Made by a program: the position numbers and the translations under genes
In this document: piece by piece, positions 25,096-57,196 of the stretch
Position numbering within the stretch: position 1 is the stretch's first letter
Layout: the number at the start of each line of letters is the position of its first letter
Assembly (NCBI GenBank): GCA_963634425.1
Contig: CAVHCL010000128.1
Coordinates: 8,751 to 69,866, forward strand
DNA: 61,116 nucleotides
Direction: 5' to 3'
From: Bacteroidaceae bacterium
Lineage (GTDB): Bacteria > Bacteroidota > Bacteroidia > Bacteroidales > Bacteroidaceae
The notes under the pieces: generated by a model
What the model was told of the DNA's origin: nothing
The model's database searches: none
What the model saw: the letters and a program-made list of their open reading frames with translations, nothing else

Positions 25096-25869
25096 ATGCA
25101 AGACAGACAACTCAACAGACGGCTATATTTCCGCGAACTCGCATACACCAGCGAACATTACTTCATACCTTACATCAGCCGTTTTATGCGTGTCGGCGCG
25201 CCATTGCGTGTTCTTGAGATAGGATGTGGCGACGGCGGCAACCTGCTGCCGTTCGCACGTTTGGGATGCGAGGTCACGGGGTGCGACATGGCTGAGTGCA
25301 GAATATCGGACGCAAAGCGTTTCTTCCAGGAAGAATCCGCCGACGGCACTTTCATAGCCTCGGATGTCTTCCTGCTCAAGGGGCTTGAACGGCGTTTCAA
25401 CCTCATCATCTGCCACGACGTGATAGAGCACATCCTCGACAAGGGAGAATTCATGCGCAAGTGCAAGTCGCTGCTGCAGCCCGGCGGTGCCATGTTCATG
25501 TCGTTCCCGGCATGGCAGATGCCTTTCGGCGGACACCAGCAGATATGCAGAAGCCGACTGCTCTCACACCTCCCCTTCTTCCATCTGCTGCCCGCACCGC
25601 TCTATTCACGTATACTGAGAATGGGTGGCGAGAACGAGGGATGCATAAAGGAGTTGTTGGACATCAAACAGACACGGTGTCCCATAGAACTCTTCGAGAG
25701 AAGCATCCCCGACTGCTTCGAGGTGGCAGACCGCACCTCGTGGCTCATCAATCCGCACTATAAGGTGAAGTTCGGACTCACTCCGCTCCGTCTCCATGTT
25801 CCGTTTTGTGCCGTGCCGTACCTCCGCAACTTCATAACCACCTCGGTGTTCTATTTTTTGAGAGGATAG
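25096..25869 (+). CDS. Class I SAM-dependent methyltransferase
   Basis: Motif I VLEIGCGDGGN, followed by an acidic residue after beta-2 (VTGCDM), then ICHDVIEHI. Confidence 0.8.
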   Translation: MQDRQLNRRLYFRELAYTSEHYFIPYISRFMRVGAPLRVLEIGCGDGGNLLPFARLGCEVTGCDMAECRISDAKRFFQEESADGTFIASDVFLLKGLERRFNLIICHDVIEHILDKGEFMRKCKSLLQPGGAMFMSFPAWQMPFGGHQQICRSRLLSHLPFFHLLPAPLYSRILRMGGENEGCIKELLDIKQTRCPIELFERSIPDCFEVADRTSWLINPHYKVKFGLTPLRLHVPFCAVPYLRNFITTSVFYFLRG

Positions 25870-25873
25870 AAAC

Positions 25874-25926
25874 TCTAGAGAACCTAGAAGTTCTAGACTT
25901 TCTAGAACTTCTATAAAATCCATAAA
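25874..25926. repeat. Phased 9-bp palindrome array #1 (6 units)
   Basis: CTAGA/CTATA/CCATA cores start at 25876, 25885, 25894, 25903, 25912 and 25921, an exact 9-bp period. The 8-mers are CTCTAGAG, ACCTAGAA, TTCTAGAC, TTCTAGAA, TTCTATAA, ATCCATAA. The array begins 5 nt after the stop at 25869. Confidence 0.9.
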
Positions 25927-25927
25927 G

Positions 25928-25953
25928 GCTGGAGGCTCTGTAGCCTCCAGCCT
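25928..25953 (+). terminator. Perfect stem-loop after the methyltransferase gene
   Basis: GGCTGGAGGCT (25928-25938), loop CTGT, AGCCTCCAGCC (25943-25953): an 11-bp GC-rich perfect stem. There is no clear U-tract, which is common in Bacteroidota. Confidence 0.6.
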
Positions 25954-25991
25954 CGGCAAAAGCCGCTTATCTTATTTTATATCAGGTGCCC

Positions 25992-26093: not shown

Positions 26094-26124
26094 TTTGGAG
26101 GAAAGGGATTTTGTCATATCTTTG
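26094..26124 (+). promoter_or_regulatory. Bacteroides-type promoter P1 for the pilus-like locus
   Basis: TTTG at 26094-26097, a 19-nt spacer, then TATCTTTG (TAnnTTTG) at 26117-26124. The first ATG of the downstream gene lies at 26181. Confidence 0.55.
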
Positions 26125-30653: not shown

Positions 30654-30685
30654 TTTGTGAGAATTACTGGATAGTCGTATCTTTG
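30654..30685 (+). promoter_or_regulatory. Bacteroides-type internal promoter P2
   Basis: TTTG at 30654-30657, a 20-nt spacer, then TATCTTTG at 30678-30685. This is the same -7 octamer as P1. It lies 132 nt upstream of the ATG at 30817. Confidence 0.55.
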
Positions 30686-30720: not shown

Positions 30721-30808
30721 CCATAGAAGCTATAGAGAATCTATGAGATCTATAAGTCCTATAGGCTATAGAAAACCTAAAAGCATAGAGGCACTATAGA
30801 GCCTACAT
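30721..30808. repeat. Phased ~9-bp palindrome array #2 (about 10 degenerate units)
   Basis: CTATAG-type cores (CCATAG, CTATAG, CTATGA, CTATAA, CTATAG, CTATAG, CTAAAA, CATAGA, CTATAG, CTACAT) start near 30721, 30730, 30741, 30750, 30759, 30766, 30777, 30784, 30794 and 30803. Spacing is 7-11 nt with a mean near 9. The array ends 8 nt before the ATG at 30817. Confidence 0.85.
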
Positions 30809-30816
30809 AACATGTA

Positions 30817-32823
30817 ATGTATAAGAGAATAGGAGTATATATATTGGCGGTGGGCCTGACGGCCTGTGTGGACGACTACTACAACGGGGGCTACTCTGCT
30901 CCCAACGGAGGAGGCATCTCTTTCGTCAATGCAGTCGTGCCTTTCACCCGTACCGGGAAGACCGGCAAGAATGCCGCCGATATGCTTGGAAACAGGTTCT
31001 TCGTCTATGGCATAAAGAACGAGAGCTTAGGCGCAGACGCTCTTGCCGCCGAAAACCTTGTGTTCCAAAACTACAAGGTGACGTACTCCGACGGCACCGG
31101 AGGTTCCTCCGTGGACAACAGCAGCGGATGGGGATATATAGGCAACGCCCTTTCCTACGACGAGGCTGCCAACCTGCGGGACAACATCGGCACTGCCGCA
31201 CAGGCCGTGAAATACTGGGACTACAATGCCGCCGACTATACCTTCTATGCGTTTGCCATCGCCAACAACGACCTTGAGGACGGCAAGATGAAGGTGACGA
31301 AGAACACCGGCAGCACCTTTGACACCTATCGCAACGGCTACACCATAGAGATGGCTGCGGATGCCGAGCCTACAGACCTCTATCTTGCCGACCGCATACA
31401 CATAACGGCATCCTCCAACACCGACCAGACACAGAGCAACGCCTACGGCGGCAAGGTGAGCTTCAACTTCCGCAACGCCATGGCGAAGGTGCGCGTGGGG
31501 ATGTACGAGACCGTCCCCGGCTATTCGCTCACCATCGACGCATTCCGCACTGTCGACGAGACAATGCCTTCGTTCGGTGACATGACGACGGAGAACACCG
31601 GTCAGTTCGCCGCCAACCTGAGCCACAACACACCGTACAAGGAGGGTACTATGACAGTGACGTACACAGACCGACACGCCACGGAAGAGAACATACCAGT
31701 GGTCGTTTTCGGCGGGACGAAGGACAATGTGCTCACTCTCGGCGACAACCTCCGGCAAGGGACGGTGCTCGGCGACAACGCCGCCGACGTGGTATACGAC
31801 AAGAGCGACGACGGCTATACCGCCATATATCCCATGGAGTACAACGCCCACAGTCTGAAGGTGAAGATGGACTTCACCCTGAAGTCCAAAGTGGGCGAGA
31901 CCATAGAGGTGAGGAACGCCACGGCGGAGGTGCCGGCCGCCTACTTGAAGTGGAAACCGGGATGTGCCTACACCTACATCTTCAAAATCAGCGACCAGAC
32001 CAACGCCACCGTAGGCAGCCTCACTGGGCTCTACCCCATAACGTTCGACTGCGTGGCAGTCAGCGACGGCACAGGAGAGGAGGAGAAGATATCCAACACA
32101 GGCAATGATGTCAACATAGTCACCATGGGCTACAACCCCGACTTGCGGCTCGTCACCGTGGGGCATGATGACTACAATGCCGGCAACACCGTCTATGCGT
32201 CATTCGTGGACAACAACACCCTCGTGACCGCCACATCGTCAAACACGAGACTCTTCGTCGCCACCACCACCGACCCAGAGAACTACCCCGTCACGCAAGC
32301 CAACGTGTCGACGTACATCAACAGCTACACCGCCGACAACACCCTCGTGGACCAACCTGTGACGGTGTACGGGCAGACTATAGCCGACGACGACTTCGTG
32401 AACGAGGTGCCTATGGGCGACGGCACCGATGCCATGCGTTCCTTGCCGGCAGTGAGATGGACGGCGGAGAGACGCGTCTACGCCGTGGAGTACACCACCT
32501 CGGACTCCAAGAGATATTACAAGATAGTGAAGGTGGACGGCTACGACGGACAGACCTCCGGCACGCTGTCGCTCAATCCTGCTGTAATAGAAAACTCCGG
32601 CGGCACAATAACACCGTCACTCACTGTGGACGGCATCACGGCATCCAATGCCGATGTCACGTACGCCCTCGACGCCGATGTGCCGTCGGGAGTGACCGTC
32701 AACGACAACGAGTCGGAGAATGTAACCATCACGGTGCCCGGCCAGACAACGGCAGGCACCTACACCATCATCGCCACCTACAACCGCAGGACGTACAGGA
32801 CATCCTTCAAGGTAAACCAGTAG
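30817..32823 (+). CDS. Type V pilin (fimbrillin/Mfa1-like lipoprotein), paralog 2, with a C-terminal Ig-like extension
   Basis: Lipobox GLTAC. GGISFVNAVVPFTR/TG. FRNAMAKVRVGMYETVPGY. YLKWKPGCAYTYIFKISD...GLYPITFDCVAV. Confidence 0.75.
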   Translation: MYKRIGVYILAVGLTACVDDYYNGGYSAPNGGGISFVNAVVPFTRTGKTGKNAADMLGNRFFVYGIKNESLGADALAAENLVFQNYKVTYSDGTGGSSVDNSSGWGYIGNALSYDEAANLRDNIGTAAQAVKYWDYNAADYTFYAFAIANNDLEDGKMKVTKNTGSTFDTYRNGYTIEMAADAEPTDLYLADRIHITASSNTDQTQSNAYGGKVSFNFRNAMAKVRVGMYETVPGYSLTIDAFRTVDETMPSFGDMTTENTGQFAANLSHNTPYKEGTMTVTYTDRHATEENIPVVVFGGTKDNVLTLGDNLRQGTVLGDNAADVVYDKSDDGYTAIYPMEYNAHSLKVKMDFTLKSKVGETIEVRNATAEVPAAYLKWKPGCAYTYIFKISDQTNATVGSLTGLYPITFDCVAVSDGTGEEEKISNTGNDVNIVTMGYNPDLRLVTVGHDDYNAGNTVYASFVDNNTLVTATSSNTRLFVATTTDPENYPVTQANVSTYINSYTADNTLVDQPVTVYGQTIADDDFVNEVPMGDGTDAMRSLPAVRWTAERRVYAVEYTTSDSKRYYKIVKVDGYDGQTSGTLSLNPAVIENSGGTITPSLTVDGITASNADVTYALDADVPSGVTVNDNESENVTITVPGQTTAGTYTIIATYNRRTYRTSFKVNQ

Positions 32824-35085: not shown

Positions 35086-38000
35086 ATGCAACGCAAGATA
35101 GTCGGTTTACTGATATTTACAATCCTGTCGCTGCTCTGCCCCCCGGGCGGCGCGGCACAAGAGGTGCGGTACGTGTCGAAGGGAGGAGCCTATTCCAACG
35201 ACGGCAAGTCGTGGGAAAAGGCGAAGTCCAACATACAAGACGCCATCAACGACCTCGTGGACAACGGACTCACGGGCGAGGTGTGGGTGGCTCATGGCAT
35301 CTATACCCCTACGGAGAGCACCGAGTCGACAGGCGGCAGCACCCTCTACATGTCGTTCAAAATACCAGCCGGCATCAGTGTGTACGGCGGCTTCAAAGGT
35401 GACGAGACCTCCAAGGAAGCACGCGAGGAGAACGCCACCAAGTCCTTCGGCAACGTGTACAAGTACTCCACCATACTCAGCGGCGACCTCTCCTCCTCGG
35501 CGGAGTTTACATGGAACACCACCAGGGAACGGTGGGAGACCTCGTTCTACGGCAACTGCTACCACGTGGTGTTCTTCGCCACCAATGGCTTTGACGCCAC
35601 AGGGCGCGCCAAGCCCAACGGCGGAGGCAAGCAGTCGGCACTGCTTGAGGGCTGTGTCATAGAGCACGGTAACGCTTACAACTCCGACCTGTCTGGCCGG
35701 CCGCACAACGCCTACGGAGGCGGAGTGTATATGGTGGAAGGCTCGTGCCTGAAGAACTGTCTGGTGCGGCAGTGCGTGTCGTACCGCGACGGCGGAGGCG
35801 TCTATATGGACGGCGGAGGCTACATAGAGCATACTGCCGTGATGGACTGCCAGACTGTGGGCATAGGCATCTCCTACGGTATGGGCGGCGGAGTGTGCAT
35901 GGACGGACCCGACACTTACAGTGCGTCCTACACACCCATGGTTATGCGTCGCTCGGGAGTCTTCGGATGCGTGGGACGCATGGGCGGCGGAGTGGCGATA
36001 GTAGCCAACGACACCGACGGCGACAACAAGTACAAGATAGCGTGCAGTGCCGTAGTGGTGGCAAACAACACTGCCACCAACGAAGCCGGAGGCATATACA
36101 TGAACAGCGGCGGTGTCATAACGCAGGCAACAGTCGTCAACAACAAATGCAACGGTGCGGGCATCATAACCAACGGCATAGCCAACGGACGCTCTGCCGG
36201 CGTATACTGCCGCAACAACGCCATAGTGTCCAACTCCGTGCTGTGGGGAGGTGTGTGCAGTGCCAACAACGACATACAGTATGCCACCTCGCGCTCGGGC
36301 AGCGGCACAGAACTCAGCCCCAACATCATGTACACCTCGCTCAGCCAGTCGGACTACACGGACTGGAGCGGAGTGATAAAGGACAACGTGACGAAGCTGT
36401 CGAAGTACAACAGCAGTGCCGACGGTACCGCATACGCCTCCGAGGGTTATCCGTTGTTCTCCAACCCCACGCCCAACGCCGGTTATGTAAGCTCCGCACA
36501 GAGAACGCAGTTCATCTACGACGGTACAAGCAGCATAGCCGACGGAGTAACCCTCTACGACAACATGGGAGTGGAGGTCAACGCCGACAACATCAAACTC
36601 GGCACTACCTACTATACAGACGTAGCCATGCAGACCGTAGCAGTGGAGGGACGTGACTACACATACCTGGGTGCCGCCTACGACTTCCAGCCGCTGTCAC
36701 GCTCCTCGCTCAACCACCGTGGCGTGCTCACCATCGACCTCGACCGTTACGGACGGACTCCCGCCTATGAGATAGACAAGGACGTGATGGGAAAGAGTTT
36801 TACCCCACGCCCTACCCTCGGTGCGTACCTCACCACCCACACCACCATAGAGCCGCAGACCGTCACCGCCTCGGGAAAGACAACGGTCAACTTCTACGTA
36901 GCCCCCAATGACGACGGCGGCACAGAGTACACCTCCATAGGCTCAAGTTGGAACCAGCCGATACGTTTCTTCTCCGATGCCATGGCGTTCATCAAGGAGC
37001 AGAGCTACCCGTCAGCCACCACCGTCAACGTATATGTGAAAGAGGGAACGGTGAACAATACCAACACCTCCGCCGTAGGACGTATACGCACAACGGACAT
37101 AGGCATACCGGGCAATGTGAACATCTACGGAGGATATTCCTCCGACAACACCGGCACCGACCTTGACAAACGCAGCCCTACCGCCTGCCTTACCATCATC
37201 ACCGGCGACGCACAGGACGACTATGCCCTCAACGTATCCCACCTACTAACGTTCGACGGCACGGAGAACACTGTGCTTGACGGCTTCGCCATACGCAATG
37301 CCAACGCACGCGGCACGGAGAAGATAGAGGGCACACCCGTGACGGTGGGGGCTGCCATGACGTTCAACAACGCCACAGGTGTGAAGATACGCAACTGCAG
37401 CGTGGCTGGACACACCGCCAGCGAGGGTGCCGCCGCCGACATGACGGACTCGGAGGTGTACTTTGAGAACTGCATCTTCCACAACAACGAGAGCCGCACA
37501 CTGGATGCCGACGGCAATGCGGTGTCCAACACCGGCAACATCGTGGTGCGCACAGGTTCCACCGCCAGTTTCTCCCACTGCAACTTCATACGCAACGTGG
37601 GCAACGCCATCGACAGCTACGGCACGGTGAAGGTCGTCAACTCCGTGTTCTACGGCAATATGTCCGAACCGCTCGAAGACACACGCGGCAATGAGGACAA
37701 GGCTCTCACGGCGGTGCGTCTCTTCAACGGAGGCACGTTCACCGGCGACCACAACCTCTTCGACTCCAAATCGGCGGCCTTCATCGCCAACAACAGTCTG
37801 GACGGCACCAACGAGGCTATCCTCACCTACGCCTTCAGCAGCACGTCCACCACATACCCGCGTTTCATGAACCCCACGAAGAACGCCGGGGTCTCCCCAT
37901 CGGGCAATGTCACCTACTATGGGAAGGCGACATCCTTCATGCCGCACAACAACAACCCGATGGTAAACCGTGCCTCCACGGTGGACAGCGACGGCGCAGA

Positions 38001-41000
38001 GACCGACGACCATGCCGAATGGGGCACCGACATGACTGGCACTGTGACCCGCGACTACGGCGGTCTGCCCGACATAGGAGCCATAGAGAACCACGAGAGT
38101 GCCGTCGCCGACGAAGGCGAGAAAGCTTATCCCGACGGACAGAAAGCCTACGGCAAGGTATTGTATGTGCGCAACTACCGCAACGACGACGGCACGGTGG
38201 ACAACAGCACCACCGACCGCGACGGTTATTCATGGAGCAGAGCCATAAACGGCAACGCCACCTACAGCGGAGTGAACGGCTTCCAATATGCCCTCAATAT
38301 GGCAAACACCCTGTGGAATGCCGACCAAACGACACAGCACGAGGTGCACGTGGGCGCGGGCACGTACACCGCCAACCTCACATGGAAGGAAGGCGTGAAT
38401 GTGAAAGGCGGCTATCCTGCTGAAGGCAACCCCGGCGAGAACGAGCGCAGCATCTCCAACACCAAGGCTGAGCACATGACCGTCATCAACGGCAACGGCA
38501 ACGGACGCGTGCTTACGCAATATGCCAATTTCTCCACCGCCGCCGTCTTCGAGGGCTTTACCATACAGGACGGCTACACCACAGGGACTAATTATGGTGC
38601 CGGAGTGTATCTCCTGAGTGGCGGAACGCTGAAGAACTGCCTTGTGCAGAACAATACGTATAGTGCATCTTCAAGAAACACAAATTATTGTCAAGGCGGT
38701 GGAGGCATCTACATGAATGACGGTTCTATTGTCAAGAACTGCAAGATAATGAAGAACTACGTCTATGCCAACAACTACCAGTCATTCTTCGGGGGCGCTG
38801 GTGTGTATGCTGCGGGCGGCACACTCATCAACTCTCTCATTGTGGAGAACACCACAGACAGTCGGAAAAACAATTTGCTCGGTGCCGGTTTGTACATATA
38901 TCAGACCTCCAGCCTTTACAACTGCACCATTGCTTATAATGTGGCTGTAAGTGCGGGGCCGGATGGCGACTATGCCGCTACAGGCGGCGTGTGGGATGCG
39001 GCAGCAAAACATCAAGGTGGTGGAAAATACATCAATCAGTCTCGTTTCTACAACTGCATTATTTGGGGTAACTATGCCAATGGTAGAACAGCAGAGAACC
39101 TGATACAGGTCGGTATGTCCGGTTTCAGTGACCAAGCCGGAAATACAAATGATGCCTTTCATACATGTTACAGTTCGGCATGGTCAAAGACGTATGCTTC
39201 TGACGATGCTTCCGATGTCAACAAAGTGATGATTGTTGGCACGGGTACAGGTTCCGCTTCCAATTATCTTGCGTTCTATAACAACAGCAAAGCCAACGAG
39301 CCTTTCGTTCGCGATGACTACGACAATACAGACTACTCGCTGAAAGCCACCGCCACACAGTGTATCAACAAGGGATCGGAATACCAGGAGCTCACCAACC
39401 TTGACATCACAGTTGACATCAACGGCGAAGAACGCATACAGGACTGCACCATAGACAAGGGTGCATACGAGTACAACCAGTCGCTCGACATCAACCCTGA
39501 GATAATCACCACTACTGGCTCTACGAATAACAAACGTGTCTTTTACGTCACCCCCGACGGTCGTGGCACGGCATCTGCCGACAGTCCCGCCAACGCCGCC
39601 TGCGCCTCTAAGCTTCAGAAGGTGCTCGATGCAGCAGGACGCTACAAGTACAACTATCCGTCGGACACCGTCATCGTGAAGGTGGCAAACAGCGCATCCT
39701 TGGCTGCCGCAGGAGAGAATTTCCAGTACTATGCTTGCCGTACCACCGACGAGGGCGACCAAAGCGCACGTGTATGGTCCATCATGGTGCCGCGCGGAGT
39801 GGAGGTGTGGGGCGGATACACCGACACCTATACCTCTGACGACGACAACGGCTTCTACACCAAGGACTCGGCGGGAAACACCGCTGACAACCGCGACATC
39901 ACGGGCAACCCCACATACTTCGATTCCTACTACTACAACAAGAGCGAAAAACAGTACACATACACCTATCACGTGGTGACATTCACCGACCGTGTGTTTG
40001 ACGGCGAGGGCTACCCGTACGAGGAAGGCGACACCATTGGAGAGCCCAGCACATGGAAGGAAGGTGACAAATATATGTCGATGAGTGAGAAAACCGCCGA
40101 CCGCGCCGTCATAGACGGGCTGTTCGTCACCGGAGGCAACGCCGACGCACAAGTGCCGAACTCCGCCAACGCCACAGCCGACATCAACCAGTATGGCGGA
40201 GCCGCCATAGTCACCGACTATGCCCACGTGCGCAACTGCATAGTGCGCGGCAACAATGGCACCTACGGAGGAGCCCTCGCACTCACCCACAACGCCCTCG
40301 TCTCGGGATGTCTCATAGACCAGAACACCGCCGACTACGGCGGTGCGGTATATATGTTTGAGGAGGGCACAACCCTGTCCGACGGAACTGTCGTCGACAC
40401 CAAGTCCTCAGGCACCGCCGTCGACGAGAACATGGCTCATGTCTACACATCCACCATCGTCAACAACACCGCCAACAAACAAGGCGGCGGCATCTGGTTC
40501 GGACAGAGCAGCGACGACATGAACATCCGCGTCAACTCCTCGGTGATTTGGCAGAACAACAGTGTCAACCAAGCTAATGTGTCGGGACTCTACAACGCCA
40601 CCAAGGCCGCCGACGACCCGTTGACGACGATAGAGTTCTACCCCTTCGCCTTCTGTGCCGTGCAGAACCTGCTCGTGCCAGGACTCAACAACATACAGCT
40701 TGGAAACCTCAACTCCTCGGGTGTGCGTTTCGCCGCCAAGGGCAACGCCGATGACGACCACAACACCATTGCCAAGGAAAGCACGGACGACGACACACAC
40801 GGGAAGTACGACGACTTCGGCTACTATGCCCTCACTGACTACTCCTCACTGATACGCAACGGTATGCCCAGCGAGCAGTACTCCGCATTGGTGACAAGTG
40901 CTGGTCTGTCGGCATTCGACTTCGCCGCCGAAGACCGCCTCGTGTCCACAGGGAGAAACCGCACCAGCATAGAGATGGGAGCGCGTGCCTTGGACAAGAT

Positions 41001-44000
41001 ACTGGACAGCCGACAACTGATGCTGCGTATCTTCGTGGCAAGATCGGAAGACATTAACATGGATGCCGCACAGACCATGATGAATCTTGCCGCCACGGCG
41101 GCCGAAGGCAGTGACGAGGAGTACTACAGCCAGGAGGGCTCATCGTTCGCCTTCCCCATGCAGAGCCTGCAGGACGCACTTGACTACATAATAGAGGCGC
41201 GCTCGCTCAACGGGGTGAAGACGGGGCTCAACCAAGAGGGCTCCAACAACCTGCCCTTTGAGATATGCCTCGGCAGGGGCACATATTATCCCAGGCACAA
41301 CATAGACAACGTACACATCAACTCCTCGGGAAACAGTTTTGCCATACCCGAGGGCGTGAGCGTGTACGGAGGCTTCGCCATAGACAACCCCGACAGGGAG
41401 AAGTCTTACTTCGGCAGATACTACAAGGAAGGCGACAACCCCGCCGGCTATACCAATGTCCTGTCCGACAACGTCAAGTCGGTGGTAGAGACAGACAACG
41501 ACACCTTAGTGAGCATAGGAGGCAGTGACGGCTACGCCATAGACCAGCTGCCCATAAGCAAGTTGAAGCCACGCCGCCGGACGCTGGACAACAACGGCAA
41601 CAACATCATAGAGCCGTGGGAGTTCGAGAATCAGACCATACTCTCGGGCGACGTGAGCTACCAAGCCGCCAACGGAAGCTATCATGTGGTGACGCTCGTC
41701 GCCGACCAGAACGTGACGGGCATGCTGCCCAAGGCCGCCGAACCGACAAGCGACGCTTTGGATTACAGCGTCTACACGACAGCCAACGGCGAAGGCTCCT
41801 ACGCCTATGAGCAGGGGCAGGACATAGTGCTTGACGGACTGCAGATAGTAAGCGGCCATGCCTTACACTATACCGAAGGCTCCACCGACTATACGAACAT
41901 GTACAACCACTACCTCGGCGGCGGAATCTTCGTCAACGGCAACCGCTACTGCGACGACTACAACAAGAAAACTTCACTCGCCGCCGAAGGGTTCGGCACC
42001 ATAGAATACAAGCACAGCGGCATAAGCGAATCTGTGGGCTACCGCAACATACCCCTTATCATTGCCAACTGCAAGTTCACCAACAATACGGCAGGAGGTG
42101 GAGGCGCGCTCTGCTCCAACGGTCTGGTGAACATATACAGCAGCGTATTCGAACAGAACCGCTCTGTCAGCGGCTGTGAGACGCTGCTTGACATTAACGG
42201 CGACGAGAAGGAAGTGGCATACGCCGGCATAGGCGGAGCAGTGCTCGCCACATACCAGCTGAGAGTCTACAACACGCTGTTCGCCAACAATGAGGCGTAC
42301 GACGAGAGATTGAACGAGAAGCCTACCGAGTTCAAGAGGATGCTGGCCGACGAGACACGCTCACTTTTAGGCGGCGCGGGCGGTGCGGTGTATGTGGGAC
42401 GCTTTGGCTTCTTCCACATCCTCAACTGCGACTTTGTGCGCAACCGTGCCAACGCATACCCCGTGATGTTTACCATGAACCCCAACCGCGACTTCACAGA
42501 CGGACGCAACGGCGGCATAGGAGAGGGCAACCCTCTGCGTCCCACCACGACATACTACAACCAGTTTGTAAACACCCTGTTCTGGGGCAACGACATCAAC
42601 GACGAGATGAGCAAGAAATACGACAGTGTCAACCCGCTGTTCAAGTTCAACTCGCGTCTCTTCTGCAACTACGCTCCCGGCGAGTTCTCCGGCATCTACT
42701 CCGCTCCCGACTTCACCGACGACACCAAGATACCCTCCGACCTGACGGCTCTCGACGGCAACAGCACATCACGGCACTCCGACTTCGGCGAGACGGCATG
42801 GTACTGCGCTTATGAGTACGGGCGCGGTACGACACCGCACAACATCACGGACATGAGAAACCTTGGATTCCTCCCGCACGTTTACGCCCGCGACATGATA
42901 CACTCCGAAGGCGAGAAGAAAGGGGCGGACACCTACCAGAACTGCAACATACGCCTCAGCTCGGAGAACTCTGACCTCGAAGGTCCCAACTTCGTGAACC
43001 CGTCGCTGACTGCGGGCTACGACGGTTACTACGAGTCCGCCGACTGGAGTCCGGCACGCCTCTCCAACCTCGTGGACAACGGAGCTGGAAAGATAGCCCA
43101 AGAGATTACCCTCGAGAATGAGGTCTATAAGACTTCGTTCAAGGAGTACACGTCTGAAAACATCCCCTCACGCTCTATATATTACAATAATGGTAATGCC
43201 GACGGCTACACCACCGAGACCGTAGGCGACTACGACACCGAGGGAGTCTACACCACCACACGTGTGCTGAACACCTACGACAGAAACCGCACGTATCTGC
43301 CAGTGGGTGAGATGACGTATATGGAAAGCTCAGCCACGGGACAAGCCCTGTACCGCATCTCGTACGACCCAAACCCCACACACAACCAGACATACATAGA
43401 CATAGGCGTGTACGAGTATCCGCACACCGAGCTGCAGTATACCACTACCGGTGACGAGGTGGACATCCTTTGGGTGTCGCCGTTTGAGAAACCCGACAAC
43501 GGTCTGCCCAACGGCAGCGCATGGAGCCAGCCCACCAGCGACCTACAGCGTGCCATAGAGACACTGCTCGCCAGCCGCAACGGCCACCGCAAGGAGATAC
43601 GCCTGATGGACGGGCCGTTCACTCCCATCTACAACATAGAGGACAAATTGGCGTTCACCATTGACACCAAAGCCATCAACGAGTCGGTGACCATGCCAGT
43701 GAAGGCGTACGAAGAGGATGGTAAAACAGTGAAAGAATATGACACAGGCAAGGGCGTGGTGTCCCTCACCATAAAAGGCGGGTACAGCCGTGAACTCAAC
43801 AACGTGTACAACCCTTTGGAGTATCCCGCCGTCATACGCCAACAGGCACGATCCCATGCTACATCCGACAGGTGGAACTACCTCTTCTATATCCACGACG
43901 GCACCCAGCGCTACGGCTACAACACATACAACGAGGCGAACGGCTACGGCAACTACGCCGACAGCGACGGCGAAGGTTACAGCAAGACCGTGAACACCAT

Positions 44001-47000
44001 ACCGCTGCACATCGACGGTGTGACACTCGTCAACAACCAGGCCAACAAGGATGTCAACGGTGCCGCCATCTTCTACGGTGACCTTGCCGACGACATCACG
44101 GCTTCCACACCAGCCCACGTCTCGATAAACACCTATTACACTGACGCGGAAAAGTCCGAAGAGTCCGAGGAGCCTACACGCTACTACAACCGCACCGTGG
44201 ACAAGTACTACACCGATGCCACGTACCAGGTGGTGTCGGAGACGGAGACACCGTTTGTCTCTTACAAGTATGCGGAGACCACTGCCAACAAGATTGTCAT
44301 CAGCAAGAGCAAGATAATGAACAGCGGTTCCTATGCCGACGACGACCACTCCACCTGCGCCGTGTACATAGGAAAGAACGGAGGCAATGCGTTGCTCTAC
44401 AACAACGTGATGCACAGCAATACAGGCAATCCGCTTGTCTCGGCAGTGCCCACCACCATCGTCAACAACACATATGCCCTCAACAAGGGACGCGTAGACC
44501 TCAACGGCGAGAACACCAGAGTGTCGTCGCTCGTCATCAACCAAGACGACAACGACGGCAACTACGACCCCGACGGACCTATGCTTGCGCCTCACCACCA
44601 GCGGCGCGCCCCATCGGCTGCCACTGGCTCGGCAATATTCAACAGCGTGTTCTGGCGCAACAACAACGACGGTGTGCAGTTTGTACTGCCAGGGTTCGTC
44701 AGCGCACAGAAGTCGGGCTCCATATTCTCGCACAATGCCGTTACGGGGTACAGCACCGATGTGAGCGACTACTCCCTACCCGACATACCCGACCAGAACT
44801 ACAACGTGGGACTCTCTGACGAGAACAGCGACATCATCAACGGTCCCAACTTCGCAGACCCTAAACAGGAAGCCACGCTGGCAGACGACATAGAGTTGCG
44901 CAACTTCACTCTGCTGCCCTCACTGCGTCTGCTCAACAAAGGCAACAACACCCTCTACAACGACAACGTTATCAAGAACCCCGACACGTATAATATATAC
45001 GACCTGGCGTGGATGACCACCACACGCACCGATGCCGGCGGCGAGCAACGCTTCGTGTACGACATAGACCTCGGTGCATATGAATATCAGAACAACCTCA
45101 ACCGCATCATCTACGTCAACCCCAACGTGAGTGCCACGGGACTGGGCAACTCGTGGGCCGACCCTGTGGCTTACGGCAACCTGCAGGCAGCCATAGACCT
45201 TGCCGCGGTGTATCATGTGAACAACGTAGACGAAGAGGCGTACGTGTTCGTCAAGGGAGCCGGCACAAGCTCCGCCGGACTGCACCTCGGCGAGTCGGTA
45301 ATCATGCGCGACGGCGTGAGCGTGTACGGAAGCATACTCCCCACACGCACGGAGGACTGCCCATACACCACAACCTCCAGCAACGGCATACGTGAATATG
45401 CGCAGACCGAAATAGACAAGTACGTGGCAACCGTCACCGCCGAGCGCGGAGGACTTGCCGACCCCACCGCCGGCACCACCACCGTCAGCGGTATCAAGAC
45501 TCCCAGCTCCACGACGTTCAACAACACCAACGCCGAGATAGTGTCCGTAGTCGACGGCTTTGCCGTCACTGCCACCAACAGAAAGAACCCCTCGGGCACT
45601 GTCGCACAACCGGTAATAAACGTGCAGCCGTTTAACTCCGACGGACGCGTGGCTCTGCGCAACATCATAGTACACGGCAACGACTTGTCCGCCCAACGGC
45701 TCACCGACCTCGCCACAGTGGACAATGCCCTCATATATGAAGCCCTGTTCCGCGACAACAAGGTGGACGACACTGGATGCCATCTGCGCATCGGGCGCAA
45801 CGGCTATGGGGTGAACCTCACCGTAGAGGGCAGAACAGTGGGAGCAGACGGGAATGTCACCTACAACGGTACCGACAGCAAGGACGGAGACCATATCTTC
45901 AACTCGCTCGTCAACTATACCGGACACCCTGCCACAGAAAACACCCTCTCGGGCTATAATTACAAGGTGAGCGCCCCCAACCTCAACTACCAGCTCACAG
46001 AGATGTCAACACACATAGACCAGTGCGAAGCAGTCAACCCGATGAAGGATGTGCCGACACTGAAGCAGTTCATCAACTACGACACCGACCGCGACCTCCT
46101 TGGCAACCTGCGTCTGCTCAGGGGCGTGAGCACCGAAGACAAGGTAGACCGCGGTGCATTCGAGACATGGCGTGTGGACCAGGACGTTGTCTGCACGTCG
46201 AAGGATGCTGACGGCAACCTCACCAACTACTACCCACACGTCGGTTCGGTAGTCTACATCATGCAGGGCAACAGCCTTGTGATGGAGCAGTATGAGACCC
46301 AAGCCGCCGAAGGAGTGACAACGCAGACCTCTGGCACCGCCTTGCGCCCTGCCTATCTGCTCGTACAGGACGGCGCGTCGCTCTACGGCAACGGCAACGC
46401 CGTCAGCGTGAGCTATGTGGGAGTGGAGCGGGAGACGAGCAAAGACGGCTCCATGGTGAGTCTGCCTTACGCCATGCAGTATGGGGGGACGGACATCGCC
46501 TCCAACGGTACGGGAGCTCCGGCATACTCTGCCGACGGCGTGCTGACACTCTCCGCCGACAAGGCCGGGACATATTCCTACAACGGCGTGGGACGCTCGG
46601 CATGGAACTCCACATTCTACAACACGGCTTCGCCGCAGTGGACAGAACTCACCGACGTGACGACCGACTCCAACAAAGGCATACTCTACAAATCTGCCGC
46701 CGACAAGCTCTACCGTTTCACTGCACAGGGCGATGCCGACAACATGGACTCCTATGTGTACACCGAGACTGCAGGCGAGATAAGCAAGACGGTGGAACTG
46801 CAGCAGTACGACGACCGTGTCTCCACCGACGGCGCTGCGGACTTCACGGAGAAGGAGGACATGGGATGGAACTGCATCGGTCTGCCTTGGCTCGTGAGTG
46901 ACTATGACACATCAGCGAAGGAGACTCTCAGCGGTGACAGCCACTACAACATGGACATACCTCACACCCTGTGGCTGTGGTATGACGGCAAGACATATCT

Positions 47001-47478: not shown

Positions 47479-47522
47479 TTCTAGAAGTTCTAGAGACTCT
47501 AAAAAATCTAGAAGATCTATAA
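47479..47522. repeat. Phased 9-bp palindrome array #3 (5 units, plus a degenerate unit over the stop codon)
   Basis: The 8-mers TTCTAGAA, TTCTAGAG, CTCTAAAA, ATCTAGAA and ATCTATAA start at 47479, 47488, 47497, 47506 and 47515, an exact 9-bp period. The array fills the 60-nt gap between the giant gene and the next gene. Confidence 0.9.
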
Positions 47523-47535
47523 AAACAACAAACGT

Positions 47536-57116: not shown

Positions 57117-57196
57117 CTATAGAAGGCTTAGAAGCTCTAGTGGCTCTAGAATACCTAGAGTTTCTATAGCTTCTAAGCCTTCTATAGCCTCTACAA
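57115..57196. repeat. Phased 9-bp palindrome array #4 (9 units)
   Basis: CTATA/CTTAG/CTAGT/CTAGA/CTAGA/CTATA/CTAAG/CTATA/CTACA cores start at 57117, 57127, 57137, 57146, 57155, 57164, 57173, 57182 and 57191 (spacing 10, 10, then 9 six times). The first unit overlaps the ackA stop codon. Confidence 0.9.

What the first reader, a model, noticed from the sequence alone, without database searches (positions are those of the whole stretch)
25874..25926. Array #1 of a phased 9-bp TTCTAGAA palindrome family, at the 5' border of the pilus locus
Six units have an exact 9-bp period: CTCTAGAG-a-ACCTAGAA-g-TTCTAGAC-t-TTCTAGAA-c-TTCTATAA-a-ATCCATAA. The array begins 5 nt after a stop codon and abuts a perfect 11-bp hairpin.

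The unit is an 8-bp palindrome plus one spacer base, so the array reads almost the same on both strands. Three more arrays of the same family occur in this window (30721, 47479, 57115). All four lie immediately upstream of genes for surface or T9SS/pilin proteins, and none lies beside the ~35 housekeeping genes. By eye, CTAG is otherwise very scarce here.

Tandem short palindromes resemble cooperative repressor operators, such as MetJ met-boxes (tandem 8-bp palindromes). I know of no described element like this in Bacteroidota.
Basis: seen in the sequence. Interest (0 to 1): 0.7.

Follow-up and report, generated by a model that had tools for sequence, protein, structure and literature searches.

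The report
Orphan phased CTAG-palindrome repeat array
This is a real, non-random run of CTAG palindromes spaced 9 bp apart: a decayed copy of a widespread, apparently undescribed repeat family of gut and rumen bacteria that brackets a small mobile "four-helix-bundle suffix" gene, and not a switch dedicated to pilus or surface-protein genes.

Summary
The array is real. Six 9-bp units (25873-25926) follow the stop codon of a methyltransferase gene and abut a 12-bp hairpin. Three sister arrays exist in the window. CTAG is about 7-fold depleted, and 10 of the 12 CTAGs lie in these arrays.

The family is large. An exact three-unit pattern (chance expectation about 0.1 hits) reached the 120-hit limit in species-representative genomes. 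The hits were almost all herbivore-gut Bacteroidales and Victivallales/Lentisphaeria. Period is 9 bp and the consensus is YTCTAGAR+N.

Arrays sit after stop codons, between cistrons, and even in frame inside genes. They flank genes of every functional class, change copy number quickly, and are missing from most relatives.

A roughly 215-aa "four helix bundle suffix" gene (TIGR02436+TIGR04258) had phased CTAG arrays beside it in 7 of 7 homologues chosen without regard to arrays. Six further cases were found through arrays. In one case the gene and the identical array occur in two unrelated contexts.

The window's arrays are orphans: no such gene lies within the 61 kb. A MetJ-like operator regulon for surface proteins is not supported. 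Protein binding to the arrays remains plausible. I found no description of this family or this linkage in the searchable literature.

The parts
25867..25869 (+). TAG stop codon of the SAM-methyltransferase ORF (25096-25869). It reads as a degenerate zeroth unit (GGATAGAAA), in frame with the array's TAGs.
25873..25926 (.). Array 1: six 9-bp units (four with CTAG, then CTAT and CCAT), consensus YTCTAGAR+N. An orphan, partly decayed phased CTAG array.
   Evidence: Folds to a 13-bp stem, -16.8 kcal/mol, z -4.3.
25927..25954 (.). Perfect 12-bp G+C-rich hairpin (AGGCTGGAGGCT-CTGT-AGCCTCCAGCCT) abutting the array. It matches the terminator-like pattern only when read on the minus strand.
26094..26124 (+). 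Bacteroidetes-type promoter-like match (TTTG-N21-TATCTTTG) for the pilus locus (DUF3575 gene from 26375/26465). It lies 170 bp downstream of array 1 and beyond the hairpin.
   Evidence: The consensus is taken from my own knowledge.
30654..30685 (+). Second Bacteroidetes-type promoter-like match (TTTG-N21-TATCTTTG). Array 2 lies downstream of it, in the presumed 5'UTR of the 668-aa lipoprotein-like ORF (30817-32823).
30721..30800 (.). Array 2: CTATAG/ATAGA variant units at 9-11 bp, preceded by a small hairpin (30706-22). No significant fold of its own (z -1.2).
47479..47523 (.). Array 3: five 9-bp units that fill the 60-nt gap between the 4129-aa ORF (stop TAG 47473-75) and the 1045-aa ORF (start 47536).
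57117..57195 (.). Array 4: starts right after the ackA stop codon (TAA 57114-16). Positions 57117-57187 form a 71-nt near-perfect inverted repeat whose arms match including spacers and non-palindromic units (CTTAG/CTAAG). Energy -48 kcal/mol, z -9.8.

Best explanation
Array 1 is an orphan, partly decayed member of a dispersed repeat family that I call phased CTAG arrays. These are tandem YTCTAGAR+N units with a 9-bp period, or 8-10 bp in some lineages.

Shown:
- The family is abundant in some herbivore-gut Bacteroidales and Victivallales/Lentisphaeria and absent from most of their relatives.
- Arrays occupy dispensable, mostly transcribed spacer DNA: just after stop codons, between cistrons, in 5'UTRs, and in frame in protein loops.
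- Arrays expand, shrink and homogenise by whole units.
- Arrays bracket a small, highly conserved, horizontally spread gene for a 'four helix bundle suffix' protein. That gene sits co-directionally inside host operons, often between hsdM and hsdS.
- In one case the same array travels with the gene into an unrelated context.

Inferred:
- The gene with its arrays is a two-part element, arranged like a RAYT gene flanked by REPs with many solo REPs elsewhere. The four arrays in this window are solo copies.
- Units multiply by replication slippage. Neighbouring self-complementary units can form a hairpin with a 6-bp stem and a 3-nt loop, which adds up to 9.
- The protein's invariant basic stretch plus leucine zipper probably recognises the CTAG palindromes as a dimer.
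- In RNA, an array folds on itself or pairs with a second array. This resembles the stems that bracket the related ORFs inside 23S rRNA intervening sequences.
- At this site the array most likely acts only as a structured 3'-UTR or spacer between the housekeeping operon and the pilus locus, or as a neutral relic. It is not a dedicated regulator of the pilus genes.
For: Family:
- By my count of the titles: 53 Bacteroidota, 53 Lentisphaerota, 1 Kiritimatiellae and 13 others.
- 810 of 849 unit spacings are 9 bp.
- Position weights are Y-T-C-T-A-G-A-R-N, with a free ninth base.

Placement:
- 54 co-directional, 13 convergent and 4 divergent contexts. Arrays often start at the upstream stop codon.
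- Flanking genes are of all classes.
- Three in-frame SRxSRx insertions lie in ResB/CcsA. They are absent from 404-aa homologues and vary in length among relatives with 71-97% identity.

Dynamics:
- L169 has 5 units where orthologous L199 has 3.
- L129 and L183 are 92-94% identical in the flanks, yet all spacers are GGT in one array and GAT in the other.
- L123 has an 8-bp array of about 55 units where orthologous L221 has four 9-bp units.
- The methyltransferase|DUF3575 spacer also carries CTAG units in L338 (75% nt identity). The closer relative L335/L336 lacks both the pilus block and the array.
- No arrays occur in 578 kb around ackA of relatives.

Partner gene:
- tblastn finds it directly beside arrays in 6 array loci from both phyla, with 50-72% aa identity.
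- It matches TIGR02436+TIGR04258.
Other intergenic gaps in the same loci have none.
- L354 carries the same upstream array as L349/L355 in a different context.

Protein:
- AF2 model with pLDDT 87.5: a 4-helix bundle plus a 47-residue C-terminal helix.
- The fold matches 2GSC and 2RLD.
- There is an invariant GGIRERMTAARLGRR stretch followed by a zipper, and a sub-threshold bZIP_1 hit of 24.4 bits against a 27.6 cut-off.

Folding:
- Array z-scores run from -3 to -9.8.
- Flanking arrays co-fold more stably than the sum of their self-folds.
Against: - No four-helix-bundle-suffix gene lies in the 61-kb window. Its presence elsewhere in this genome is untested.
- The unbiased gene-to-array test covered only PVC-type homologues. 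The four Bacteroidales cases were found through arrays, so they are biased.
- Only about 6% of arrays have the gene next to them. The link between solo arrays and the protein is therefore inferred from shared sequence.
- Binding of the protein to CTAG arrays is untested, and bZIP similarity is below Pfam's cut-off.
- Slippage alone does not explain why the CTAG core recurs in two phyla whose genomes otherwise avoid CTAG.
- The sense/antisense asymmetry is 36 versus 14, with the antisense fold more stable. It matches general strand composition and does not argue for a selected RNA hairpin.
- Only 10 of 69 arrays are followed by a canonical terminator.
Confidence: 0.55

Rival explanations
1. The arrays are cooperative operators (MetJ- or TrpR-like) for a repressor that controls pilus, surface and T9SS-cargo genes.
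For: - The units are tandem palindromes with strict phasing and a free ninth base.
- In the window all four arrays precede large secreted-looking or pilus ORFs.
- The methyltransferase|DUF3575 spacer also carries CTAG units in L338.
Against: - Family-wide, the flanking genes are of all classes.
- Arrays hug upstream stop codons and are rare in divergent promoter regions.
- Some arrays lie inside ORFs.
- The four arrays have inconsistent positions relative to promoter-like motifs in the window.
- Core positions have decayed in the window's arrays (CTAT, CTAA, CCAT).
- 8- and 10-bp periods occur elsewhere.
- The array is absent from ackA orthologous loci.
- No regulator gene lies in the window.
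Confidence: 0.07
2. Neutral, self-expanding minisatellite with no partner protein. Hairpin-prone 9-mers arise by chance and spread by replication slippage in lineages that have a generally high short-repeat load.
For: - Arrays show concerted evolution and copy-number change.
- Decayed units are present in the window.
- In-frame insertions are tolerated in protein loops.
- Array-bearing loci have 2.4-fold more unrelated 7- and 9-bp tandem repeats than array-free loci.
Against: - It does not explain why the same CTAG core recurs in two phyla within strongly CTAG-depleted genomes.
- It does not explain the 7 of 7 linkage with one conserved gene family.
- It does not explain an identical array travelling with that gene.
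Confidence: 0.15
3. A REP-like RNA element selected in its own right. The array hairpin acts in the transcript as a 3'-end stabiliser, terminator or RNase III site that uncouples neighbouring cistrons, independently of any dedicated protein.
For: - Folds are far more stable than shuffles. Array 4 is a 71-nt near-perfect hairpin with mirrored non-palindromic units.
- Arrays are positioned right after stop codons and between cistrons.
- Orientation relative to transcription is biased.
- Orthologous sites keep an array while the units turn over.
Against: - The antisense strand folds better than the sense strand in 36 of 50 cases.
- Only 6 of 51 arrays fold better than unit-order shuffles.
- Few arrays carry a U-tract or a nearby terminator.
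- Arrays inside ORFs and in convergent gaps have no obvious RNA role.
Confidence: 0.15
4. Arrays are attachment or recombination sites for gene cassettes, by Campbell- or integron-like insertion. Solo arrays would be landing pads or scars at junctions of inserted DNA such as the pilus block.
For: - The 4HB-suffix gene is flanked by near-identical direct-repeat arrays in L359.
- The cassette is found in unrelated contexts (L354 against L349).
- Array 1 marks the left edge of a block that is absent from L335/L336.
Against: - No recombinase is associated with the arrays in any locus examined.
- Most arrays lie between conserved housekeeping genes.
- No empty-site/filled-site pair was recovered.
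Confidence: 0.08
5. Back-up in-frame stop codons. The (NNN-TAG-NNN)n run guards against read-through of the upstream gene, for example by TAG-suppressor tRNAs of recoded phages.
For: In the window the TAGs of arrays 1, 3 and 4 are all in frame with the upstream stop codon. The chance of this is about 0.04.
Against: Across the family there is no frame preference. Frame offsets are 28/17/27 for ORFs that stop before arrays, and 18 ORFs run through arrays. A 9-nt period protects only one frame.
Confidence: 0.02

Closest known systems
REP/BIME elements and their RAYT genes (REPtrons), as reviewed in PMC3733652
   Same: - Short palindromic repeats in high copy, mostly extragenic and after genes.
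- Sometimes found inside genes.
- Patchy distribution between species.
- A dedicated gene is itself flanked by the repeats while most copies are solo.
- Proposed RNA-hairpin side effects.
   Different: - The units here are 9-bp palindromes in strict head-to-tail phase, not 20-40-bp stem-loops with GTAG or CGTC tags.
- The partner is a four-helix-bundle protein with a basic/zipper tail, not an HUH tyrosine transposase.
- No catalytic domain is evident.
23S rRNA intervening sequences that encode four-helix-bundle proteins (PF05635 / TIGR02436; structures 2GSC, 2RLD)
   Same: - The ORF belongs to the same fold family.
- The ORF is inserted into a host transcript.
- The ORF is bracketed by sequences that can pair with each other.
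   Different: - The host is an mRNA operon (type I R-M, ileS and others), not rRNA.
- The brackets are phased CTAG repeats.
- The extra suffix and zipper domain is present.
- RNase III excision is not shown here. My knowledge of rRNA intervening-sequence processing is from memory.
MetJ met-boxes and TrpR operators (tandem short palindromes bound cooperatively; TrpR sites centre on CTAG)
   Same: - Tandem 8-bp palindromes.
- A CTAG core, as in TrpR operators.
- Binding by stacked dimers is geometrically plausible.
   Different: - The period is 9 bp (8-10 in the family), against 8.
- Arrays have 4-50 units, against 2-5 boxes.
- Placement is after stop codons, between cistrons and inside ORFs, not over promoters.
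- There is no coherent regulon.
- No RHH or TrpR gene was identified.
Rickettsia palindromic elements (RPE) and other repeats inserted in frame into ORFs
   Same: Palindromic repeats tolerated in frame within conserved proteins, as with the SRx loops in ResB/CcsA.
   Different: RPEs are single elements of 100-150 bp, not phased 9-bp arrays.
Contingency-locus simple sequence repeats (for example 7-bp promoter repeats in Haemophilus)
   Same: Tandem short units that change copy number. In the window they lie near surface-protein genes.
   Different: Units are multiples of 3 and, in the window, degenerate. Length change would therefore neither shift the reading frame nor be frequent. Across the family there is no link to surface genes.

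Membership tests
Phased CTAG array family (defined here) | At least 4 tandem units with a CTAG core, consensus YTCTAGAR+N, 9-bp period | tested here: met
   Array 1 has six units at exactly 9 bp. The family position weights and spacing match.
Phased CTAG array family (defined here) | Sits in dispensable spacer DNA that abuts the upstream stop codon | tested here: met
   Array 1 starts 3 nt after the methyltransferase stop codon, which is the typical family position.
Phased CTAG array family (defined here) | Adjacent four-helix-bundle-suffix gene (cassette form) | tested here: not met
   tblastn with two family proteins found no hit in the window. Array 1 is an orphan copy, like about 94% of the arrays sampled.
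MetJ-type tandem operator | Contiguous 8-bp boxes (8-bp period) matching AGACGTCT | tested here: not met
   The unit is YTCTAGAR plus one spacer base, with a 9-bp period.
MetJ-type tandem operator | Overlaps the promoter of the regulated gene | tested here: not met
   Array 1 lies 170 bp upstream of the only promoter-like motif and is separated from it by a hairpin. Array 3 lies in a 60-nt intercistronic gap.
MetJ-type tandem operator | Coherent regulon of functionally related genes | tested here: not met
   Neighbours of 51 arrays span unrelated functions.
MetJ-type tandem operator | Cognate ribbon-helix-helix repressor | not testable with these tools
   No regulator gene lies in the window, but a trans factor could be encoded anywhere in the genome.
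REP/BIME | 20-40-bp imperfect palindrome with a GTAG or CGTC tag (PMC3733652) | tested here: not met
   The units are 9 bp, carry no tag, and are arranged as direct tandem repeats.
REP/BIME | Association with a RAYT (IS200/IS605-like) transposase | tested here: not met
   No transposase was found in the window or among array neighbours. The associated gene is TIGR02436+TIGR04258.
REP/BIME | High-copy, extragenic, patchy between species | tested here: met
rRNA-IVS-like element with a four-helix-bundle ORF | ORF of the PF05635/TIGR02436 fold bracketed by mutually complementary sequence | tested here: inconclusive
   This holds for the cassettes, but array 1 has no ORF, and pairing of the two flanks is only a prediction.
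rRNA-IVS-like element with a four-helix-bundle ORF | Excision of the element from the transcript by RNase III | not testable with these tools
   This needs RNA end-mapping.
Contingency-locus SSR | Near-identical units whose number switches expression by changing reading frame or promoter spacing | tested here: not met
   Units of array 1 differ from one another, and two have lost CTAG. The unit length is a multiple of 3, and the array lies outside the promoter spacer.

The most novel reading that the evidence does not exclude
Phased CTAG arrays and the four-helix-bundle-suffix protein form a previously unrecognised two-part genetic element that has moved between Bacteroidota and the PVC group in herbivore guts.

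In this reading a bacterial protein with a bZIP-like tail coats, or nucleates on, tandem CTAG palindromes. It then either drives their spread, as RAYT does for REPs but without a known catalytic fold, or uses them to splice its own gene cassette into and out of host operons or transcripts. Hundreds of solo arrays such as the four in this window would be its genomic footprint, with side effects on neighbouring genes.
Probability: 0.35. Interest if true: 0.8.

Novelty: new variant of a known kind. Interest (0 to 1): 0.62.

Why it matters
- **A handle on an unknown protein family.** The TIGR02436/TIGR04258 family is very large (more than 7,800 close homologues in one search) and has two crystal structures but no known function. 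The arrays would give it a concrete cis partner, which makes its function directly testable.
- **A new repeat-gene association.** It would add a system comparable to REP-RAYT in important rumen and gut clades.
- **An explanation for odd local sequence.** It would account for strange local CTAG islands in CTAG-depleted genomes, and for SRx or LEx insertions in conserved proteins.
- **A warning for annotation.** Such arrays break assemblies and mimic regulatory operators.
- **Relevance to this window.** The arrays should not be read as a pilus or surface-protein regulon signal.

Tried and rejected
1. **Generic pattern.** Four CTAGs at 9-bp spacing in viral contigs returned over 119 hits, nearly all coding 3-aa repeats. 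The pattern was too unspecific.
2. **Phage origin.** The specific three-unit pattern gave only 14 viral hits, mostly from giant-virus or environmental contigs.
3. **In-frame back-up stop codons.** This holds for 3 of 3 arrays in the window, but the frame distribution across the family is uniform.
4. **Conservation downstream of ackA.** None of 80 loci has an array, and there are none in 578 kb.
5. **Hairpin adjacency as a family feature.** 15 of 236 array flanks have a hairpin against 4 of 225 controls, so this is not general.
6. **Canonical terminator after arrays.** 10 of 69 arrays against 4 controls, a minority.
7. **RNA strand preference.** The antisense fold is more stable in 36 of 50 arrays. 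This is consistent with general strand composition, so it is not evidence for a selected sense-strand hairpin.
8. **Rfam.** No match anywhere in the window.
9. **Exact-protein look-ups.** The window's methyltransferase was not on record. ackA returned only an identical Logan contig, so there was no strain-level comparison.
10. **PADLOC.** No defence-system match for the partner protein.
11. **Sequence search of the PDB.** It returned only coiled-coil noise and a weak 2GSC hit.
12. **Literature.** No paper contains the array strings or describes the linkage.
13. **Unbiased gene-to-array test in Bacteroidales.** No homologue of the Bacteroidales type appeared among the listed hits.

Full report

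Yes. Positions 25873-25926 hold six units at an exact 9-bp period: CTCTAGAGA ACCTAGAAG TTCTAGACT TTCTAGAAC TTCTATAAA ATCCATAAA. They begin 3 nt after the TAG stop (25867-69) of a SAM-methyltransferase ORF. They end at a perfect 12-bp hairpin (25927-54).

Four CTAGs at 9-bp spacing occur once in the window and in none of 100 shuffles. The three sister arrays exist. A core-density scan returned exactly these four clusters.

CTAG is observed 12 times against 88 expected. Ten of those 12 lie in arrays 1, 3 and 4, so O/E outside arrays is 0.024. Array 2 is a CTATAG variant with irregular 9-11-bp spacing.

**2. Where the arrays sit in the window.**

The window carries housekeeping genes: PHO4, Mfd, FtsK, LolA, TrxB, ABC ATPases, RNA methyltransferases, FolP, CdaA, Pta and AckA. 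It also carries a block of ORFs with few or no family matches, including DUF3575 and DUF5119-like pilus genes, a 4129-aa ORF and a 1045-aa Big_2 ORF. I detected no T9SS sorting domain, no transposase and no regulator gene.

The four arrays have four different relations to genes and promoters:
- Array 1 follows the methyltransferase gene. It lies 170 bp upstream of the nearest Bacteroidetes-type promoter match (26094-26124), with the hairpin in between.
- Array 2 lies downstream of a second such match (30654-85), in a presumed 5'UTR.
- Array 3 fills a 60-nt intercistronic gap.
- Array 4 starts directly after the ackA stop codon.

The statement that none lies beside a housekeeping gene is therefore wrong for arrays 1 and 4.

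**3. A large family elsewhere.**

For random sequence of that size I estimate about 0.1 hits.

By record title, 53 stretches are Bacteroidota: Prevotella, Alloprevotella, Bacteroidaceae, Paludibacteraceae and Ca. Aphodosoma. Another 53 are Victivallales/Lentisphaeria, one is Kiritimatiellae, and 13 are unrelated things, mostly coding repeats. Nearly all come from rumen or hindgut MAGs.

In 125 arrays, 810 of 849 unit spacings are 9 bp and arrays have 4 to over 29 units. The position weights are Y-T-C-T-A-G-A-R, followed by a ninth base that is free.

Phage contigs rarely carry the pattern, with 14 hits. Full-text searches found no paper containing these strings.

**4. Placement and dynamics across the family.**

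*Placement.* Arrays lie in 54 co-directional, 13 convergent and 4 divergent gaps. They typically abut the upstream stop codon, and often the first TAG of the array is itself the stop. They leave 10-60 nt before the next start codon. Flanking genes cover every functional class, including tRNA synthetases, PdxA, FBPase, LepA, glycoside hydrolases, type I R-M genes and PorV.

Arrays can also sit in frame inside genes. A ResB/CcsA fusion in Ca. Aphodosoma has three SRxSRx loops encoded by TCTAGA arrays. These loops are missing from 404-aa homologues and vary in length among relatives with 71-97% identity.

*Turnover at orthologous sites*:
- L169 has 5 units where L199 has 3, in identical flanks.
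- L129 and L183 are 92-94% identical, yet all spacers are GGT in one array and GAT in the other.
- L123 has an 8-bp-period array of about 55 units where L221 has four 9-bp units.
- L148 and L204 (about 70% identity) both keep an array in the same intercistronic gap.

*Patchiness:*
- 80 ackA loci of relatives (69-90% aa identity, 578 kb) contain no array at all.
- The closest methyltransferase relative (88%) has a plain terminator and rplS in place of array 1 and the pilus block.
- A 75%-identical genome (L338) keeps the pilus block and has CTAG units with hairpins in the same spacer.
- Array-bearing loci also carry 2.4-fold more unrelated 7- and 9-bp tandem repeats.
- CTAG depletion itself is general in these Bacteroidales, with O/E 0.14-0.21.

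**5. Structure-forming potential.**

As single strands the arrays fold far better than shuffles: array 1 gives -16.8 kcal/mol (z -4.3). Array 4 is a 71-nt near-perfect inverted repeat at -48 kcal/mol (z -9.8), whose arms match even in spacers and in non-palindromic units.

Across 51 oriented arrays, however, the picture is weaker:
- The antisense strand folds better in 36 of 50 (p = 0.004). This matches the general C/A excess of sense strands.
- Only 6 arrays beat unit-order shuffles.
- Few arrays are followed by a canonical terminator (10 of 69) or abut a G+C hairpin (15 of 236).

A selected RNA hairpin is therefore possible but not demonstrated. An in-frame "back-up stop codon" idea fits 3 of 3 arrays in the window, but it fails family-wide, where the frame offsets are 28/17/27.

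**6. The partner gene.**

Two arrays in L198 flank a 220-aa ORF. tblastn found homologues directly beside arrays in six array loci from both phyla, with 50-72% aa identity. The protein matches NCBIfam TIGR02436 (four helix bundle protein) plus TIGR04258 (four helix bundle suffix domain). It matches Pfam PF05635 only weakly, and it has no PADLOC match.

To remove ascertainment bias, I looked up seven homologues chosen only for contig length. All seven have phased CTAG arrays within about 100 nt, across 53 places:
- 9-bp arrays on both sides (P0354, P0347)
- 8-bp arrays on both sides (P0279)
- G-rich 9-10-bp arrays upstream (P0283, P0297)
- arrays downstream only (P0303)
- mixed spacing on both sides (P0302)

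Other intergenic gaps in the same loci have no arrays. The gene always lies co-directionally inside a host operon, often between hsdM and hsdS. Array length differs between samples that carry the identical protein. L354 carries the same upstream array sequence as L349/L355 but sits behind a group II intron reverse transcriptase, so array and gene move together.

Near cassettes, further arrays lie inside neighbouring ORFs (L198, L216, L382, L384). In P0354 and P0347 cassettes the upstream array ends exactly 12 nt before the start codon. The two flanking arrays are predicted to pair with each other more stably than each folds alone.

**7. The protein.**

The protein is highly conserved. The AlphaFold model (pLDDT 87.5) is a four-helix bundle followed by a 47-residue helix. 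The best structural matches are 2GSC and 2RLD, both of unknown function.

The tail combines an invariant basic stretch (GGIRERMTAARLGRR) with a leucine zipper. Pfam bZIP_1 scores up to 24.4 bits against a cut-off of 27.6. DNA or RNA binding by a dimer is therefore a lead, not a result.

Related four-helix-bundle ORFs are known from 23S rRNA intervening sequences and as Avd in diversity-generating retroelements. That statement rests on my own knowledge and on the PF05635 mention in PMC10053308, found.

**8. Interpretation.**

Array 1 is best read as an orphan, partly decayed copy of this family. Its units match the family consensus and its position is typical, but no partner gene lies in the window.

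The closest known architecture is REP-RAYT (PMC3733652): a dedicated gene flanked by the repeat, plus many solo copies in spacer DNA. Here the repeat type and the protein are both different.

The operator-regulon model is not supported. Protein binding, RNA processing, or a role as a recombination site remain open. Section 6 shows the gene-array linkage for PVC-type genes. The link to solo arrays in Bacteroidales, and every functional step beyond that, is inferred.

Noticed in passing
window 35086-47475: A 4129-aa ORF with no Pfam match. The neighbouring ORFs of 668, 396, 339, 1045 and 1177 aa also lack family matches, apart from weak Big_2 in one. No T9SS C-terminal domain was detected.
   Followed up: partly
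window 26-50.7 kb compared with L335/L336 and L338: The pilus and giant-ORF block is absent after the orthologous methyltransferase in the closest relative (88% aa), where rplS follows. It is present in GCA_963611465.1 (75% nt). It therefore looks like a variable insertion, with array 1 at its left edge.
   Followed up: partly
L338 10790-11800 and 14440-15190: This spacer is crowded with repeats. There are three copies of a composite unit (CTAG units, then the hairpin GGTGCGCC..GGCGCACC, then CTAG units). 7-bp CTGAGAA repeats run into the methyltransferase 3' end. GTAGGAGGCGCA-type repeats are also present.
   Followed up: no
L123 3970-4420: About 55 units of an 8-bp-period CTAG array (CTAGGAGG, CTAGAAGC/CTAGAATG), located directly after a terminator hairpin and upstream of a four-helix-bundle-suffix gene.
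   Followed up: partly
L198 5685-7014 (-): A ResB/CcsA fusion protein with three in-frame SRxSRx insertions encoded by TCTAGA arrays. Related proteins carry other repeat-derived inserts at the same three loops.
   Followed up: yes
L382 2352-3668 and L384 203-1504: Phased CTAG arrays lie inside or at the end of hsdS-like genes next to the cassette. They may alter the coiled-coil spacer of the specificity subunit.
   Followed up: no
L180, L201, L226, L230: Reyranella and other alphaproteobacterial MAGs carry a conserved TTCTAGAA x3 site at 9-bp spacing in a G+C-rich context, on four contigs. This is probably an unrelated protein-binding site or repeat end.
   Followed up: no
L121-L240 (for example L152, L171, L175, L147, L222): Array-bearing genomes also have many lineage-specific 7- to 9-bp tandem repeats (AATTAGG, TTAGTGG, ATTCGTC, CTCTAAA, TTCTGGATA, CTGGAAGTT). 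This is 2.4-fold the density found in array-free loci.
   Followed up: partly
whole window: Besides CTAG (O/E 0.14), GATC (0.25) and GGCC (0.28) are strongly depleted. This is suggestive of restriction-modification pressure.
   Followed up: no
window 25867, 47473 and 57114 and the arrays that follow: The TAGs of arrays 1, 3 and 4 are all in frame with the upstream stop codon. This pattern is not seen family-wide.
   Followed up: yes
P0277 and P0285 C-termini: Some four-helix-bundle-suffix proteins end in Ser-rich repeats (SSxSS...), which suggests the ORF reads on into its downstream array.
   Followed up: no
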